DNA from: a virus
DNA: 19,238 bases
Direction: 5' to 3' (one strand)
UHGV virus genome: UHGV-1568686
Shown in pieces: positions 1 to 5,503 of this stretch (within the stretch, counting starts at the first letter, position 1; each line of letters begins with the position of its first letter). Position numbers and translations under genes: made by a program. The notes under the pieces were generated by a model that had not been told where the DNA came from, ran no database searches, and worked only from the letters and a program-made list of their open reading frames with translations.

Positions 1-154
1 TGTTTTAGATAATGTCTGTCATTTAATTTGCTCCAGATACAAGGAATCGCCGCAGCATGGCTACGGTTGGTGTTTATTGCATACCGAAATGGTACGATTG
101 TTGATTTGTACAGTAGGTTTTACGATGCCATTCCACCCATTTGGTGAGGCATTG

Positions 155-412
155 ATGATGTACAGCAAATACGATGAGGCGCAGTTCCACTTGAGGCTTA
201 CGCACGAGTTGCACGCTAAGATTAAGCAGCGTGCAAGAATGAATAACAGGTCTATCAATTCCGAAATTGTGGCTACGATGGAAGAATCACTCTCCAAACC
301 ATCACCTGTAAGCGGTTATCGTGATGAAGAAGAGAGACTGGCCTCATTAATCTCGGAACGAGTAAAAGAAGTTGCGGCTGAAATTCTAAGGAAAGAAAAA
401 ACCCGCGATTAA
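155..412 (+). CDS. mnt: Mnt-like ribbon-helix-helix repressor (85 aa from ATG 155; the track ORF 77..412 begins at an upstream TTG)
   Basis: Translation contains RMNNRSINSEIV followed by SKPSPVSGYRDEEERLA, closely matching my recollection of P22 Mnt (NGRSMNSE ... SKPSPVTGYRNDAERLA). GGTGAGG Shine-Dalgarno 5 nt before ATG 155. Convergent with the antirepressor genes. Confidence 0.7.
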   Translation: MMYSKYDEAQFHLRLTHELHAKIKQRARMNNRSINSEIVATMEESLSKPSPVSGYRDEEERLASLISERVKEVAAEILRKEKTRD

Positions 413-426
413 GCGGGTTTAGTTTT
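398..426. terminator. Bidirectional intrinsic terminator hairpin between convergent genes
   Basis: AAACCCGC (398-405), loop GATTAA, GCGGGTTT (412-419). On the minus strand the stem is followed by TTTTTCTTT; on the plus strand by AGTTTTC. The mnt stop codon lies in the loop. Confidence 0.6.
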
Positions 427-438
427 CATTATAAAATG

Positions 439-1167
439 TTACGCCACATTTGAGCCATGTAGCAGGTGTTGTAGTGCTTTAACGCCTTCAGAATTGTAAC
501 GGAACGCCTCTACCTGTTTGCTGGAATGCGCCGATTTATCCAGGAAGAACTTACCGTACTGCTCAGTTTTGAGGTTGTTTGCGTTAGCAATGCGACCAAT
601 CTTGTTGGCCGTTACTCCAAGCTGCTCTGCAACCTCCCCTGCTGAGTAGTAATGCTCTTCTATTGCTGGAAGAGGTATTGCATTAAAACCAACGATCGGG
701 TTGATTATGCTTGCTGCCGCAGTCTGCTTTGCTTCCGGCGCAAGATTTGGCATCAAATCGAACAGATTGGTAACAGCTTCAACCGTCATTTTCAATGTTC
801 GCGCCTGGCGATACTCAACAAGTCCACTCGACGATTTACCGCTTTTAATGTGCGCTTCTTGCATACTTTCAAGTTGGTCTACAAGTGAGCGGCGAACAGC
901 TTTAGATTCACGAGCAGCCACTCGAAGGGCTTGCTTAATTGACATAACAACTTTTTCAGAAGTTGTCTTGTTTGATTTTTGAACTACGAAAATTTCGTAG
1001 TGCTCACCTTCAAGTTCATCCTTAATGCGTGCAATAAAGTCGTTATTGCGGACTTCTTTTTCCCCGCACTGTCTACGAGCATGATTGACCATCTCTAACA
1101 GGTACTGGCTATCAATGGTTTTATCCGTGACAACGGATCCGATGTTTGCTACATTCTTAAAAGTCAT
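439..1167 (-). CDS. Phage antirepressor/regulatory protein with KilAC/ORF6C-like C-terminal region (242 aa from ATG at 1167; the track ORF extends to a TTG at 1254)
   Basis: AAGGAA Shine-Dalgarno 6 nt upstream of the internal ATG. The C-terminal segment YSAGEVAEQLGVTANKIGRIANANNLKTEQYGKFFLDKSAH resembles KilAC-type antirepressor C-terminal domains. Located in the immI-like cassette downstream of the Bro-N gene. Family assignment is from memory only. Confidence 0.55.
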   Translation of the reverse strand: MTFKNVANIGSVVTDKTIDSQYLLEMVNHARRQCGEKEVRNNDFIARIKDELEGEHYEIFVVQKSNKTTSEKVVMSIKQALRVAARESKAVRRSLVDQLESMQEAHIKSGKSSSGLVEYRQARTLKMTVEAVTNLFDLMPNLAPEAKQTAAASIINPIVGFNAIPLPAIEEHYYSAGEVAEQLGVTANKIGRIANANNLKTEQYGKFFLDKSAHSSKQVEAFRYNSEGVKALQHLLHGSNVA

Positions 1168-1254
1168 TAGGCATTCCTTATGTGGTAGTAAGGGTGTGAC
1201 ATAGGCCGCCAGCAGCACACTGGCGGTTTTCTTTTGCGCCGTCCTGTGCACCAA

Positions 1255-1881
1255 TCAATGAATCCATTCCTCGCCGCGCAGTTTTGCCAGCATTGGCTGA
1301 GCGTTCTTTACGACAAAATTGTTGGTATCAAGATTCTTCATTTCACGAAGAAGTGATTTCTTGGTTTCTTCTGACATGTAGCGAGTCTCATATGCAATAT
1401 CGTAAATCCTTCCTGAAAGCTCAGAACCAATTTGCTTCATTCCTGGGTAGATGTGTTTGCACATTTGTTGACTCTTCTCCATCCACAATTGTAAGTAGCA
1501 GAGATTAACCAGTTCTTCGTCAGTAAACTGTTTTGCAATCGGTGAGCATTCTGCCTGCCGATCCAAAATATCCAGCACCCAGCGGCGGAACTCTTTGGCT
1601 ACCTGAGTGCGAGCAAACATCGCGATTAGGTGGGCACCGCGTAGTGAGAAAACACGCACTTTTTTGCGATAATTTCCTGAGGTACTCACTTCGAGTACCT
1701 GAGTCATTCCGGCGCTAAACTCATCGCTATACTTGTTATAAATCATTGTTACTGCACGACTATTTGCGTATTTAAGTGCAGATGCAATATTAGATGATGT
1801 AAACCAAACACCATGCATATCACGGGTGGGCACCAACTCAACTCCGTGGAAGTTGTAATCTGATTTTGCTACAATATTCAT
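1255..1881 (-). CDS. ant: Antirepressor with Bro-N/AntA N-terminal domain (208 aa from ATG at 1881)
   Basis: FHGVELVPTRDMHGVWFTSSNIASALKYANSRAVTMIYNKYSDEF...VRVFSLRGAHLIAMFARTQVAKEFRRWVLDIL matches the Bro-N/AntA signature. AAGGAAA Shine-Dalgarno 5 nt upstream. Directly downstream of the arc-like gene as in P22 immI. Confidence 0.75.
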   Translation of the reverse strand: MNIVAKSDYNFHGVELVPTRDMHGVWFTSSNIASALKYANSRAVTMIYNKYSDEFSAGMTQVLEVSTSGNYRKKVRVFSLRGAHLIAMFARTQVAKEFRRWVLDILDRQAECSPIAKQFTDEELVNLCYLQLWMEKSQQMCKHIYPGMKQIGSELSGRIYDIAYETRYMSEETKKSLLREMKNLDTNNFVVKNAQPMLAKLRGEEWIH

Positions 1882-1954
1882 GTTAGTTTCCTTGCATACG
1901 GTTACTGACATAGAGGCCCGGTTTGTGTTCACGCACTGCCGGGCTTCACTATTT

Positions 1955-2128
1955 TTACTGGGCATTAGCTCTTTCCTCTCTCAGGCTTTTAGCCAGTCGC
2001 TGCACAATCGCAGAGTTGATAGAAATTCCATCCATTTCAGCAACACGTCTAATCTCCTCCTTCATTCGCGCTGGCAAACGAAGCTGGAAACTTTGACTTT
2101 TACGACCTGTGTAAAGCACATCTTTCAT
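1955..2128 (-). CDS. arc: Arc-like ribbon-helix-helix repressor (57 aa from ATG at 2128)
   Basis: FQLRLPARMKEEIRRVAEMDGISINSAIVQRLAKSL resembles P22 Arc (FNLRWPREVLDLVRKVAEENGRSVNSEIYQRV). GGAGG Shine-Dalgarno about 7 nt upstream. Divergent from a Mnt-like gene. Confidence 0.75.
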   Translation of the reverse strand: MKDVLYTGRKSQSFQLRLPARMKEEIRRVAEMDGISINSAIVQRLAKSLREERANAQ

Positions 2129-2239
2129 AAGTAATCCTCCCACAATGATACCAACTTGGTTCTAGAACCAATTTAACACCATTTATTTTGATGTCAAGTT
2201 GGTGCTATTGTTTAGCGAACATCTTTACGTTGAGGTCAT
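2129..2239. promoter_or_regulatory. Divergent promoter/operator region between the arc-like and Mnt-like genes (Pant/Pmnt analogue)
   Basis: 110-bp gap between divergent start codons. Consensus TTGACA on the minus strand at 2192-2197 with a weak -10 (TAAATT/AAATTG) about 16-17 bp downstream. Repeated ACCAA/TTGGT half-sites: ACCAAcTTGGT at 2150-2160 and CAAGTTGGT at 2195-2203. Confidence 0.55.
2156..2171. promoter_or_regulatory. Perfect 16-bp palindrome TTGGTTCTAGAACCAA, candidate RHH (Arc/Mnt-type) operator
   Basis: Exact dyad symmetry verified base by base. It sits just downstream of the putative -10 of the minus-strand promoter, about 28 bp upstream of the arc start. Confidence 0.6.
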
Positions 2240-2560
2240 ATGAGCAAGTTCCCTAGTCATGAAATGGATAGGTTCAATATCAGGCTTCCTGCAGGAATGC
2301 GGGATGCTATAGCTGAACGAGCCAAACGTAACGGCAGATCAATGAACTCAGAGATTGTTCAGATACTGGAAGATGCCTTGAATGCAGAAAATACACTCGG
2401 GGAAATAGCAGATAAAATCAACAGCGTCTCGGTTCCGCTAAATGTTGATGCGCTAGTTCAACTTCAAGCCCAGGTTATCGCCATGCAAAAAGAAATACAG
2501 GAAAAGTTCAGAGAGCAGAACGAAAAGTTGAGAGAACTGCTAAACAAAAAACCCACCTGA
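2240..2560 (+). CDS. Second Mnt-like RHH repressor with an extended coiled-coil-like C-terminus (106 aa)
   Basis: RFNIRLPAGMRDAIAERAKRNGRSMNSEIVQILEDAL is nearly identical in pattern to the P22 Mnt N-terminal RHH (HFNFRMP...ANGRSMNSELLQIVQDAL). Occupies the P22 mnt position, divergent from arc. GAGG 4 nt before the ATG. Confidence 0.75.
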   Translation: MSKFPSHEMDRFNIRLPAGMRDAIAERAKRNGRSMNSEIVQILEDALNAENTLGEIADKINSVSVPLNVDALVQLQAQVIAMQKEIQEKFREQNEKLRELLNKKPT

Positions 2561-2587
2561 CGGTGGGTTAATTTTTGCCTTTTTTGG
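2550..2587 (+). terminator. Intrinsic terminator after the Mnt-like gene
   Basis: AACCCACC (2550-2557), loop TGAC, GGTGGGTT (2562-2569), followed by AATTTTTGCCTTTTTT. The stop codon lies in the loop. Confidence 0.65.
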
Positions 2588-2658
2588 ACCATATTGACTA
2601 CTCATAAAATGAGATCAATATTTAATCGCCCAATAACGGGTGTATGTTGAGGTATATC

Positions 2659-2838
2659 ATGGCGAAAAAACCAGGTGAAAACACAGGAAAAAACGGCGGA
2701 ATATACCAAGAAGTTGGCCCACGCGGCGGTAAGAAAGACAATTTTGCCACCGTCAAGGACAACGAAAGGCTTCCACCAACAACAAAGCCAGGTCATGGCT
2801 GGGTATTGGATAAGCGAACTCCAGACAGCAAAAAGTAA
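2659..2838 (+). CDS. YjzC-like small protein of unknown function (59 aa)
   Basis: MAKKPGENTGKNGGIYQEVGPRGGKK...ERLPPTTKPGHGWVL fits the G-x-Y ... ERxPP ... W pattern I associate with the YjzC-like family. GAGG Shine-Dalgarno 7 nt upstream of ATG 2659. Possible promoter TTGACT at 2594-2599. Confidence 0.6.
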   Translation: MAKKPGENTGKNGGIYQEVGPRGGKKDNFATVKDNERLPPTTKPGHGWVLDKRTPDSKK

Positions 2839-2844
2839 TAATCA

Positions 2845-2867
2845 AGCCGGTTCACTCCGGCTTTTTG
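2845..2867. terminator. Bidirectional terminator hairpin between convergent genes
   Basis: AGCCGG (2845-2850), loop TTCACT, CCGGCT (2857-2862), followed by TTTTTG on the plus strand. The stop codon of the minus-strand gene lies in the loop. Confidence 0.6.
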
Positions 2868-3217
2868 ATATGTCGCTCGCAGAACTCAACAAGCCTGCTC
2901 ATTAAGTAGCAGTAAGTCTCGTTGGCTCTTCCTGGTTCAACATCAACACCTACCCTTGAGCAGATATCGAATGCCATGTGAGCACACTCATGGGCAATAG
3001 TAGATAGTTTGCCATTGAACACGCCTATCACATGCAAAACACCATTTTCGCTGCTCATTGTATGAGACGCTCCGTTGGCATCCGAGTCCTGCACGTCCAC
3101 GCCAAGTTTTTGATGCAGGCGTTGCCATTCTGGAAAGTCTCTGCAAAACACAATCGTACCGCTCTCAAAGAGCGGGACTAGCATCTTTGGTACTTTTCCA
3201 ATGTTAACTTTTTTCAT
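2852..3217 (-). CDS. Minimal ImmA/IrrE-like (peptidase M78/DUF955-type) HExxH zinc metallopeptidase candidate (121 aa from ATG at 3217)
   Basis: Translation contains LSTIAHECAHMAFD, matching the (F)TIAHE(L)GH signature of ImmA/IrrE proteases, with a downstream acidic residue (NETYCY). AGGA Shine-Dalgarno upstream of ATG 3217. Family assignment is by motif only. Confidence 0.55.
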   Translation of the reverse strand: MKKVNIGKVPKMLVPLFESGTIVFCRDFPEWQRLHQKLGVDVQDSDANGASHTMSSENGVLHVIGVFNGKLSTIAHECAHMAFDICSRVGVDVEPGRANETYCYLMSRLVEFCERHIKKPE

Positions 3218-3247
3218 GGTATCCTGCTCAAAACTAAGGAGGTTGGT

Positions 3248-3637
3248 GTGAAGCAATTTCTTACTGCTATGTTCTTATTCATATCTTTTGGGGCTACAGC
3301 AGAGTGCTGGGTCGTTGGAGATATGCGCGGAATAAGCTATTCAGAACGAAATAATTTCCATCCGGAAGAAGATGGTTTTAGTGGAACATTCATCATTAAG
3401 ACAAACGGTGAAGATGCCAGCATCACATATTCTGGGACAGATGCGGGCGGCATGGCTTACAAAGCATTGTCTAAAAACTCCATCATAGGAATCGGCGCGA
3501 ATGGCGAAACTCAACGCGTTATCGACTCATGGGTAATACATCCTACTGGAACAGTTTTAATGTCAAAAACCATTTCCGGTTATGGAAATATGGATTCAAC
3601 CAAAGCTTTTGTTGGAAAAGTAAAAAGAAAATGTTAG
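3248..3637 (+). CDS. Small secreted/periplasmic protein of unknown function (129 aa, GTG start)
   Basis: AAGGAGG Shine-Dalgarno 5 nt before GTG 3248. N-terminus MKQFLTAMFLFISFGATA-ECW is a classical Sec signal peptide with an AxA cleavage site. The mature protein has one Cys near each end (ECW...KRKC). Appears AT-rich relative to the structural genes (by eye, not computed). Confidence 0.7.
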   Translation: MKQFLTAMFLFISFGATAECWVVGDMRGISYSERNNFHPEEDGFSGTFIIKTNGEDASITYSGTDAGGMAYKALSKNSIIGIGANGETQRVIDSWVIHPTGTVLMSKTISGYGNMDSTKAFVGKVKRKC

Positions 3638-3661: not shown

Positions 3662-5503
3662 TTACTGCTGTGTTGCCTCAGTAGCAAGCAGCGGCCTGAT
3701 GGCATTTGCAGCGTTACTCAACGCTCTTTCATAGGCTGGCGTTCCAGCTTTAGTGTTTGCCAGACGTAAGAGAGCATTCCTTGCTGCTTTGGACTCATAC
3801 AAGCGCATCATTGCACCAAAACCAGCCTCAAGCCCCATTGATACGCCAAGGGTCGCAGTTGCGCCAATCGTCCTTATCCTGTTGGCTTGCGATTGCCCCG
3901 TCTGAGTTACTACATTTGCGGTGTCTGACCTTGCTGTTTGCTGTAGAACTTCATGAAGAGCATCAAGCTCTTTCATGTGCTTTCCAGAAAAAATAGTGTT
4001 GTAAATTTCACCGCCTGACTGAGATTTCAGCTTATTAACTTCAGTGATGAACTTGGCTGGAGAGTCACCGGCCTTTTCCGCTATTTTGCTGACGTAAGCT
4101 GCACGCATAGCATCTTTCCCTTTATCATCCAATGCGCTCCAGATTCGTTTCACGTCAGATGGTTTTCTGCTTAATACAACAGTATTTATAAGTTCAGGAC
4201 TGGCTTCACTGCTTGCCTTGTTGAGCTTGTTAGCAATGTTTTTATTAAGCACCTTATTATAAACGTTTGCATAATCGGAATTTGCTTTAAGGTATTTTGC
4301 TGCGTCTGACGCACCGAGGTTTTTTGCAACTGCGTTACGAAGGTCTTTTGACATTGCATTCTCTACCATATTGGTAGCTGCTTTTGCCTGGTTGGGGAAG
4401 ACCATAGCATCTCCCTGAACATTAGATCTAAATGCTGTTCTGTGCTGACGCAAGAGATCAAACGTAACATCCAAATCAGTTGCAGGGTTTGCTAATTCTT
4501 CACGCAGGTTACGCAAGGATGTAAGCAGGCTTTGATTGGCAGACGTCCCAAGCCGTTCCTGTCTTGCGATCGCTGTATTCAGAGCATTCATGGTATTTGT
4601 GGTATCAACTGCGGCATTACCCATTTTATTGGTGACGTCATTGATAACAGCGCCAGCGGCATCCTTCCGCCCCCTTAACGTGGTGGTAAGAGATTTCACC
4701 ACATCATCAGGGTTGTACTCACCAAAACGGTCAAAATAATTGCTTACCAGCTTACTACGCGTTGCATATTGCTCAGCTCGCTTTGAGCCTGTCCCGAGCA
4801 AAGCCCCCTCAGCATCCTGAGTAAGTCCGCGAGTGAAAGCATTTTTCGGCGGGATAACATCAGATGTCATTGGTGTCACGCCCATCGATTCTGATGTGGC
4901 AATTTTCTTCGCCACTTCTGGCGCAATATCACCTTTTATAGCCGTTATTCCACGCCCTATTCCCTTTGCTGCTGCGGAAAGAACACCCTGAGCGGCAAGG
5001 TTAACTCCGGCATTTTTAGCTGCATTTTGTGCGAAATCGCCTTTCTGATTTGCGGCCTCTGCCAGTGATCCAATAGCCATGCTTCCTGCCGTTCCAACTC
5101 CTGGAACTAAATACCCACCAATTGTTTCACCGGCTTGTGCGTATGGGTCTGTCGGTCTGTCTACTGGACGATAAACATCATCCAAAACCTTGGGTCCACC
5201 AAGCCCCTGACTGATTGCATTAATCAGACTTGCGCCGCCCTGCAATACGTCAAATGGTATGTTTACCAGACCACGACCAGCCTGCTCTGCAATTTGCCCT
5301 GCACTTTGACCACCTGTGAGCCAATCGCCAGCTTGTTGCATCAATGATGGTTCTTCACGTGCTGGTTCATTATTGGCCTGATTAACTGTTTGTTGCTGAA
5401 CAGCCTGACCAGCAAAATACTCATCAATGGCGGTGCCAATATCTTCCGTGCTCGTACCATCAGGGAAGGTAAATGTCTTACCGTTTGCAGTTACTTTCAT
5501 CAT
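3662..5503 (-). CDS. Ejection (injection) protein, P22 gp16 homologue (613 aa)
   Basis: N-terminus [29 protein letters not shown] matches my recollection of P22 gp16. Last gene of the gp7-gp20-gp16 ejection triad. Confidence 0.85.

What the first reader, a model, noticed from the sequence alone, without database searches (positions are those of the whole stretch)
3248..3637. Periplasmic small protein encoded right after ejection gene 16, at the sieA-equivalent position
This is a 129-aa protein with a clear Sec signal peptide (MKQFLTAMFLFISFGATA|EC...) and two cysteines at the ends of the mature chain, suggesting a disulfide-closed periplasmic domain. It is translated from a GTG with a strong AAGGAGG site, is on the strand opposite to the late operon, and appears AT-rich. 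In P22 the locus between gene 16 and immI holds the superinfection-exclusion gene sieA. A periplasmic protein here is a good candidate for a superinfection-exclusion, receptor- or envelope-targeting factor, or a lysogenic-conversion factor. I recognise no known family.
Basis: partly seen in the sequence, partly recalled or inferred. Interest (0 to 1): 0.6.

Follow-up and report, generated by a model that had tools for sequence, protein, structure and literature searches.

The report
Secreted Hex-family protein replacing sieA
A P22-like prophage carries, exactly where phage P22 keeps its superinfection-exclusion gene sieA, a small secreted beta-barrel protein that is a distant relative of phage 434 Hex ("heterologous exclusion"), so it is most likely a periplasmic factor that keeps rival P22-like phages out.

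Summary
The ORF is real: window 3248-3637 (+), 129 aa, GTG start 5 nt after AAGGAGG. It has a Sec-type signal peptide (cleavage ATA|EC) and cysteines at both ends of the mature chain.

The protein belongs to phrog_2651 (E 3e-61), which also holds phage 434 Hex / Sf6 gp38 (27% identity, full length). It has no Pfam, NCBIfam or PADLOC model. About 89 clusters at 50% identity exist, all about 125-135 aa, and every mature chain has 2 or 4 cysteines.

AlphaFold (pLDDT 94) gives a small up-and-down beta-barrel with no specific solved relative.

The DNA upstream is 97% identical to P22 through the annotated PsieA, the ribosome site and the sieA GTG, then diverges. This is a precise swap of the sieA coding sequence.

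At least five divergent family lineages lie next to gene 16 in P22-like phages. The Hex clade lies after cI. Others lie beside RexAB or in an integron cassette.

A paper cites older genetics showing that 434 hex excludes P22.

Best reading: a lysogen-expressed periplasmic exclusion factor against P22-like phages. The function is inferred, not shown. The published cytoplasmic RecA role of Hex fits a secreted protein poorly.

The parts
3187..3217 (+). Region equivalent to the annotated P22 sieA promoter (PsieA)
   Evidence: P22-pbi record AF527608 annotates PsieA at L002 3586-3616. The window aligns to it without gaps at an offset of 399, with one substitution, which lies in the spacer. The simple sigma-70 consensus scan did not call it.
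3236..3242 (+). Shine-Dalgarno sequence AAGGAGG, 5 nt before the start codon
   Evidence: Sequence read directly. It is identical in P22, Emek and the window.
3248..3637 (+). Hex-family gene: 129-aa precursor, GTG start, TAG stop
   Evidence: ORF list. Matches phrog_2651 at E 2.9e-61. 27% identical over its full length to 434 Hex. 96-97% identical to the proteins encoded in Salmonella phages Emek (orf129) and ST-35. Present in 147 of 5426 complete E. coli genomes.
3248..3301 (+). Signal peptide, residues 1-18 (MKQFLTAMFLFISFGATA); predicted signal peptidase I cut after ATA
   Evidence: n/h/c layout and the -3/-1 rule hold across the family. AlphaFold models helix 2-15 outside the barrel. The PHROG profile starts matching at residue 14.
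3302..3634 (+). Mature 111-aa chain (about 12 kDa, pI about 7): nine modelled strands forming a small up-and-down beta-barrel. Cys20 (3305-3307) and Cys129 (3632-3634) lie on the first and last strands.
3662..5503 (-). Gene 16 homologue (ejection / DNA transfer protein), the convergent neighbour that defines the slot
   Evidence: phrog_770 at E 3e-280. Gene 16 homologues (Pfam Phage_P22_gp16) also neighbour family members P0023, P0028, P0052 and P0083.
2852..3217 (-). Divergent neighbour: 121-aa ORF from ATG 3217, with an HExxH motif. Shared with P22. The PsieA-equivalent region overlaps its 5' end.
   Evidence: ORF list. phrog_1365 of unknown function. Intact in the 97%-identical P22 DNA.

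Best explanation
The gene encodes a Hex-family (phrog_2651) protein. It is made as a 129-aa precursor, exported by Sec and cut after ATA. It folds in the periplasm into a 12-kDa beta-barrel closed by a Cys20-Cys129 disulfide. In this prophage it has precisely replaced the sieA coding sequence behind the P22-type PsieA promoter and ribosome site, so it should be made in the lysogen. Its most likely role is superinfection exclusion of P22-like phages from the periplasm. It would act as a binding protein that interferes with DNA delivery, either with the ejection-protein conduit (gp7/gp20/gp16) or with another virion component that works in the periplasm. This is the job that the unrelated inner-membrane protein SieA does in P22.

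Shown: the ORF, the family membership, the signal-peptide and disulfide signatures, the fold, and the cassette swap.

Inferred: expression in the lysogen, periplasmic location, the exclusion function, and the step that is blocked.
For: (1) Homology to Hex. tblastn finds 434, lambda imm434, Sf6, HK446, HK633, Sf101, Huey and Chlobot over the full length. Pairwise BLASTP gives E 3e-12. Both proteins hit phrog_2651, at 2.9e-61 and 1.4e-58. Bridging members hit both clades.

(2) Hex genetics. PMC3564112, citing Susskind and Botstein 1980, reports that lambda imm434 lysogens of Salmonella exclude P22 and that hex- lysogens do not. It also shows that hex is on the PRM transcript in lysogens.

(3) Slot. 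The DNA is 96.8% identical to P22 up to the sieA GTG and then diverges. PsieA is annotated there in P22. No sieA is present in the window.

(4) Recurrent synteny. Family members 27-49% identical to the window protein lie convergent with gene 16 in other P22-like phages. These are P0023 plus a tandem paralogue, P0028, P0052 and P0083. P0033 lies next to RexA/RexB. P0031 is an integron cassette, so the gene works as a single unit.

(5) Export signatures across the family and a confident soluble-barrel model.

(6) The published sHex fragment begins at E43 of the 158-aa ORF. That is the first residue after the predicted cut site ANS|EC. The same paper found that full-length Hex over-expression stopped growth and lowered optical density. 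The authors did not draw the export conclusion; this reading is mine.

(7) SieA, the usual occupant of the slot, blocks DNA injection through gp16/gp20. Only 22 of 66 P22-like phages carry it, which leaves room for alternatives.
Against: - No experiment exists on this gene.
- The Hex exclusion phenotype is known to me only through a secondary citation. The step at which Hex blocks P22 is not stated there.
- The only published biochemistry on Hex assigns it a cytoplasmic role, blocking RecA-stimulated repressor cleavage.
- The region between gene 16 and gene 9 is a general hot spot for accessory genes. Position alone is therefore weak evidence.
- In Emek and in many E. coli prophages, homology to the window starts only 30-47 bp before the GTG. 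PsieA is thus not always the promoter.
- Two family members are in ordinary chromosomal settings with no phage genes nearby.
- The fold gives no functional clue.
- The sigma-70 scan did not call the PsieA-equivalent site.
Confidence: 0.5

Rival explanations
1. Periplasmic protection factor unrelated to phage entry. It could be an orphan immunity or inhibitor protein against envelope-acting toxins (type VI effectors, bacteriocins, lysozymes), or a lysogenic-conversion factor that changes host fitness.
Against: No toxin or effector gene lies next to any sampled member. No member has a convincing match to a known immunity or lysozyme-inhibitor Pfam family; the best is PliI at E 0.14 in one of 67 members. 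Most informative contexts are prophage slots used for exclusion genes. The one genetic phenotype reported for the family is phage exclusion.
Confidence: 0.2
2. An exclusion factor that works as a murein-hydrolase inhibitor. Like T4 Sp, it would block the virion-borne cell-wall hydrolase of the incoming phage rather than the ejection-protein conduit.
For: It is predicted to be periplasmic. Its barrel fold class is shared with the PliC and PhiA lysozyme inhibitors. That T4 Sp prevents peptidoglycan degradation by modulating lysozyme is stated in the review PMC11436027.
Confidence: 0.1
3. A cytoplasmic 'repressor protection protein', as published for 434 Hex. It would bind the prophage repressor, block RecA-stimulated autocleavage and so stabilise lysogeny.
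For: PMC3564112 reports a 30-fold higher spontaneous induction for hex- lysogens, dependent on recA. It also reports partial complementation by the sHex fragment and in vitro inhibition of 434 and P22 repressor cleavage. The 434 GenBank record uses this name.
Against: The signal peptide and the even cysteine counts are conserved across the whole family. sHex covers E19-N79 of the 134-aa precursor, which by its residue range is only the first half of the barrel, and it was purified through guanidine. The window gene is not linked to a repressor gene. Relatives occur in integron cassettes and in chromosomal sites with no repressor.
Confidence: 0.07
4. An outer-membrane beta-barrel protein of the OmpX / PagP / Lom type. 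Phage Huey's record labels its Hex homologue 'PagP'.
Against: The mature chain is only 111 aa, and several strands are 6-7 residues long, too short to cross a membrane. The terminal disulfide and the C-terminal ...KRKC, in place of an aromatic end, are atypical of outer-membrane barrels; this rests on general knowledge. No member matches Pfam PagP or OMP families at E up to 1.
Confidence: 0.03

Closest known systems
Phage 434 Hex (and the near-identical Sf6 gp38, with homologues in HK446, HK633, Sf101, Huey and Chlobot)
   Same: Same family: both hit phrog_2651. The two proteins are colinear over their full length at 27% identity. They share a signal peptide, xCW at the mature N-terminus, an ETW-type motif, and FVGxVxGxC at the C-terminus. 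Both are single genes in a prophage region expressed in lysogens.
   Different: Hex follows cI on the PRM transcript, whereas this gene sits in the sieA slot beside gene 16. The sequences are highly diverged. Hex is annotated and published as a cytoplasmic repressor-protection protein, which the sequence features argue against.
P22 SieA (types A-C)
   Same: Same locus, same start codon and ribosome site, and the same annotated promoter region in a P22-like prophage. The expected job is the same: keeping out P22-like phages.
   Different: There is no sequence similarity. SieA is a multi-pass inner-membrane protein (PMC10883804). This protein is a secreted soluble barrel with no membrane segment beyond its signal peptide.
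Phage P1 Sim and phage T4 Sp (envelope-acting exclusion proteins)
   Same: They are functional analogues: phage proteins that block entry after adsorption. T4 Sp is described in PMC11436027. That P1 Sim is a processed periplasmic protein rests on my own knowledge.
   Different: No homology was tested or is expected. Their targets and folds are unknown or different.
MliC / PliC periplasmic lysozyme inhibitors
   Different: No Pfam match, and the structural score is no better than for generic barrels.

Membership tests
Hex family (phrog_2651) | Significant full-length match to the family profile | tested here: met
   phrog_2651 at E 2.9e-61, residues 14-129 on profile positions 1-116 of 117. 434 Hex hits the same profile at 1.4e-58.
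Hex family (phrog_2651) | Direct colinear homology to 434 Hex | tested here: met
   27% identity over 129 aa; tblastn E 9e-5 against 2.3 Gb. Pairwise BLASTP E 3e-12. Bridging members link the two clades.
Hex family (phrog_2651) | Signal peptide plus conserved terminal cysteine pair and the W95 / G123 motifs | tested here: met
   C20, G28 and G123 are invariant; D42, W95 and C129 are conserved in at least 90% of 67 sequences. Cysteine counts are always even. Signal-peptide rules hold.
Hex family (phrog_2651) | Gene directly downstream of cI on the PRM transcript | tested here: not met
   Here the gene lies between an Mnt/Arc-type region and gene 16. This is a feature of the Hex clade's locus, not of the protein.
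Hex family (phrog_2651) | Excludes P22 from lysogens (the phenotype that named Hex) | not testable with these tools
   Needs phage challenge. Known for 434 only through PMC3564112, which cites Susskind and Botstein 1980.
SieA | Sequence similarity to SieA | tested here: not met
   tblastn of P22 SieA (type A only) against the window gives nothing below E 2.7.
SieA | Multi-pass inner-membrane protein | tested here: not met
   The model is an all-beta barrel after one N-terminal signal helix.
SieA | Located between gene 16 and gene 9 of a P22-like prophage, behind PsieA | tested here: met
MliC/PliC lysozyme inhibitors | Match to the family profile | tested here: not met
   No Pfam hit for the window protein at E up to 0.1, or for 67 members at E up to 1.
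MliC/PliC lysozyme inhibitors | Specific structural similarity | tested here: inconclusive
Sec / signal peptidase I secreted proteins | Positive n-region, hydrophobic core and small residues at -3/-1 | tested here: met
   MK / FLTAMFLFISF / ATA|E. This is rule-based only, because no SignalP-type predictor was available.
Outer-membrane 8-strand barrels (OmpX / PagP / Lom) | Match to the family profile, and strands long enough to span the membrane | tested here: not met
   No Pfam match. The mature chain is 111 aa with strands of 6-9 residues.

The most novel reading that the evidence does not exclude
Hex-family proteins are a second, previously unrecognised class of DNA-entry blockers. They would be soluble periplasmic barrels that intercept the ejection-protein conduit of P22-like phages. 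They would be interchangeable with the membrane protein SieA at the same locus, and also carried next to cI, next to RexAB and in integron cassettes. The published cytoplasmic RecA mechanism of 434 Hex would then be an artefact of working with a half-barrel fragment in the wrong compartment.
Probability: 0.3. Interest if true: 0.7.

Novelty: new variant of a known kind. Interest (0 to 1): 0.5.

Why it matters
Only about a third of P22-like phages carry sieA (PMC10883804), and what fills that slot in the others has not been described. This gene offers one answer. A soluble periplasmic blocker would also give a tractable probe of how the gp7/gp20/gp16 conduit assembles across the periplasm.

The work links an unannotated protein family to a named gene, hex. 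That family is labelled 'hypothetical protein' in 147 complete E. coli genomes and 'unknown function' in PHROGs.

It also shows that Hex itself carries all the marks of an exported protein, which calls for a re-test of its published mechanism.

The family is small, and the function remains an inference, so the finding is of moderate rather than high interest.

Tried and rejected
- Pfam, NCBIfam and PADLOC scans of the protein gave nothing usable, and a Pfam scan of 67 family members gave nothing either.
- A profile search of PDB sequences gave only noise.
- Foldseek against the PDB and against BFVD gave no hit at E <= 1e-3.
- The AlphaFold database library was unavailable.
- The search for related loci with the family alignment failed because no stretch was conserved enough. 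I sampled contexts one protein at a time instead.
- The original Susskind and Botstein 1980 paper is not held.
- Literature searches found no paper that describes a periplasmic Hex or a Hex-like gene at the sieA locus.
- I considered and rejected membership of SieA, MliC/PliC and PagP/OMP families.
- I considered the PGAP start at ATG 3269 (122 aa) and rejected it. It removes the charged n-region. Other alleles keep a full-length MK... N-terminus. The GTG with its strong ribosome site is the annotated P22 sieA start.
- Model coordinates could not be read, so the Cys20-Cys129 distance was not measured.

Full report
**1. The observation**

- AAGGAGG lies at 3236-3242, 5 nt before the GTG.
- The gene converges on the gene 16 homologue (3662-5503, minus strand; phrog_770 'DNA transfer protein', E 3e-280). 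The gap between them is 24 bp.
- The rest of the window is a P22-type late operon on the minus strand.
- Left of the gene is an immI-like region with Arc/Mnt-type and antirepressor genes.
- GC is 41.5% over the gene against 44-50% nearby, so 'AT-rich' is only mildly true.

**2. Export signals**

The N-terminus is MK, then FLTAMFLFISF, then GATA|EC. This gives a positive n-region, an 11-residue hydrophobic core, and Ala at -3 and -1.

I had no SignalP-type tool, so I tested the rule on the family. In 67 aligned members, the residue two positions before the invariant Cys is Ala in 51 and Ser in 8. The -3 position is A, S, V or T in 55. Nearly all members have K or R near the start.

The signal region diverges freely while the mature part is conserved. 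Close alleles read MKLIIAMAFFVFSFSVSA|EC..., for example. The PHROG profile begins to match only at residue 14.

C20 is invariant and C129 is present in 66 of 67 members. A second, internal Cys pair is present in 37 members and absent in 30, never half present. Every mature chain therefore has 2 or 4 cysteines. That is the signature of a protein that folds in an oxidising compartment.

**3. Family**

Pfam, NCBIfam and PADLOC have no model for the protein. PHROGs places it in phrog_2651, 'unknown function', at E 2.9e-61.

Distribution:
- A word-indexed search found only close relatives in E. coli and Salmonella.
- The exhaustive HMMER search found 89 cluster representatives at 50% identity. Nearly all are 120-150 aa and match over their full length.
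- The gene is in 147 of 5426 complete E. coli genomes. It is always chromosomal and always annotated 'hypothetical protein'.
- Among 50,697 phage records, 16 carry a family member. Three records, for Salmonella phages Emek and ST-35, encode proteins 96-97% identical in the same slot. Thirteen records hold a 27%-identical, full-length relative: phages 434, lambda imm434, HK446, HK633, Sf6 (gene 38), Sf101, Huey and Chlobot.

In 434 that relative is the gene immediately after cI, annotated 'repressor protection protein'. That gene is hex.

The link to Hex is solid:
- Pairwise BLASTP gives E 3e-12.
- 434 Hex hits the same phrog_2651 at 1.4e-58.
- Intermediate members P0028, P0033 and P0083 hit both clades, at E 1e-17 to 5e-10.

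The Emek GenBank record already noted similarity to Sf6 gene 38.

**4. Structure**

I ran AlphaFold2 with a 71-sequence alignment. The model has mean pLDDT 94.2 and pTM 0.82. It shows a signal helix at residues 2-15, followed by nine strands that form a small up-and-down beta-barrel. The Cys-bearing first and last strands lie next to each other in sequence order.

- Foldseek against the PDB and BFVD gives nothing at E <= 1e-3.
- A profile search of PDB sequences gives nothing.

The fold therefore supports 'soluble binding barrel' but names no function. An outer-membrane barrel is unlikely, for three reasons:
- The mature chain is only 111 aa, and several strands are 6-7 residues long.
- The C-terminus ends in KRKC.
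- No member matches an OMP or PagP family.

**5. The locus is a precise swap of sieA**

Window 2544-3250 is 96.8% identical to P22. The shared stretch covers:
- orf59a;
- an unannotated minus-strand ORF;
- the annotated PsieA (equivalent to window 3187-3217);
- the ribosome site;
- the sieA GTG.

Similarity ends at the first base after the GTG. There is no sieA anywhere in the window.

In Emek and in E. coli SD134209, similarity to the window begins only 30-47 bp before the GTG. The mobile unit is therefore the ribosome site plus the ORF, and the promoter differs between phages.

**6. Context of relatives**

- Five further lineages lie convergent with a gene 16 homologue in P22-like phage contigs. 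These are P0023 (49% identical to the window protein), a divergent paralogue in tandem with it, P0028 (36%), P0052 (29%) and P0083 (27%, and 40% identical to Hex).
- P0033 (34%) is an opposite-strand insert in a siphophage tail module. In one contig it lies next to RexA/RexB.
- P0031 (34%) is one cassette in an integron-like array with 18 attC-like repeats.
- P0027 and P0064 are lone chromosomal genes.
- No sampled member lies next to a toxin or effector gene.

**7. What the literature says**

*Hex.* PMC3564112 states that Susskind and Botstein showed that lambda imm434 lysogens of S. typhimurium exclude P22, and that hex- lysogens do not. The name stands for 'heterologous exclusion'. The paper also shows that the PRM transcript runs through hex in lysogens.

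It then proposes that Hex blocks RecA-stimulated repressor cleavage. That proposal rests on a 6-kDa fragment, sHex, spanning E43-N103 of a 158-aa ORF.

I translated that ORF. E43 is the first residue after ANS, the predicted signal-peptidase site of the 134-aa precursor. N103 falls in the middle of the barrel, so sHex is a half-barrel that begins at the mature N-terminus. Full-length Hex over-expression stopped growth and lowered optical density. Neither 'signal', 'periplasm' nor 'membrane' occurs in that paper. The inference that Hex is exported is mine.

[quoted passage not shown] Only 22 of 66 P22-like phages carry it. The paper does not discuss what else occupies the slot.

**8. Explanation**

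The best reading is a lysogen-expressed, Sec-exported, disulfide-closed periplasmic barrel of the Hex family that excludes P22-like phages. It probably binds a component of the DNA-delivery apparatus in the periplasm.

| Statement | My estimate |
|---|---|
| Anatomy: exported barrel, Hex family, sieA swap | about 0.95 |
| Exclusion function | about 0.5 |
| Block acts at DNA delivery | about 0.35 |

Rivals:
- A periplasmic immunity or conversion factor unrelated to phage entry: 0.2.
- A murein-hydrolase inhibitor, as a variant of exclusion: 0.1.
- The published cytoplasmic repressor-protection role: 0.07.
- An outer-membrane barrel: 0.03.

**9. Novelty**

The gene belongs to a family with one named member, so it is not categorically new. 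Three points are new, as far as the held literature shows:
- a Hex-type gene occupies the sieA slot;
- that association recurs across divergent lineages;
- the whole family, Hex included, looks exported.

I rate this a new variant of a known kind (prophage exclusion genes), with moderate interest.

Noticed in passing
window 2852-3217 (-): 121-aa ORF from ATG 3217 with an HExxH motif (IAHECAHMAF). It matches phrog_1365 (unknown function) and no Pfam family. The 97%-identical DNA in P22 keeps it intact, but record AF527608 does not annotate it. The PsieA-equivalent region lies inside its 5' end, so the two divergent genes may interfere with each other.
   Followed up: partly
L003 2429-2905 (phage 434 hex): The published sHex fragment (E43-N103 of the 158-aa ORF) starts exactly at the predicted signal-peptidase site ANS|EC. 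By its residue range it covers only the first half of the barrel. The paper never considers export. The 'repressor protection protein' label may therefore rest on a non-native fragment.
   Followed up: partly
L011 1-10010: An integron-like cassette array: 18 copies of a 75-nt attC-like repeat at 364-719 bp spacing. Family member P0031 (3028-3411) is one of the cassettes.
   Followed up: partly
L017 7001-8822: Family member P0033 is an opposite-strand insert in a siphophage tail-gene module, directly beside RexB and RexA genes. A sister contig, L016, has the same insert without RexAB.
   Followed up: no
L008 3359-4164: Two divergent family genes in tandem, both 128 aa, next to gene 16 of a P22-like phage.
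   Followed up: partly
window 77-2560: The immI-like region holds two antirepressor-type genes (439-1254, phrog_1726; 1255-1965, Bro-N plus P22_AR_C). It also holds three small Arc/ribbon-helix-helix-type ORFs (77-412, 1955-2143, 2240-2560). That is more than P22 has. Only 2240-2560 was scanned against Pfam; the other two were judged from their sequence alone.
   Followed up: no
protein P0012 (E. coli, 642 member sequences): A common E. coli allele has its last 23 or so residues replaced by unrelated sequence and lacks the C-terminal Cys. It is probably a disrupted copy.
   Followed up: no
L007 4601-5341 (E. coli FDN-9): In this prophage a Rap1a/Tai family immunity gene sits directly upstream of the Hex-family gene. 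The Hex-family gene here has a different 5' end: similarity to the window starts at base 50 of the ORF.
   Followed up: no
L006 6022-6390 (E. coli SD134209), equivalent to window 3269-3637: RefSeq/PGAP starts the gene at the internal ATG, giving 122 aa. That start removes the charged start of the signal peptide and would hinder signal-peptide prediction from database entries.
   Followed up: yes
L005 2501-2905 (phage Huey): The Hex homologue is labelled 'antimicrobial peptide resistance and lipid A acylation protein PagP'. No family member matches PagP in Pfam, so the label looks wrong.
   Followed up: partly
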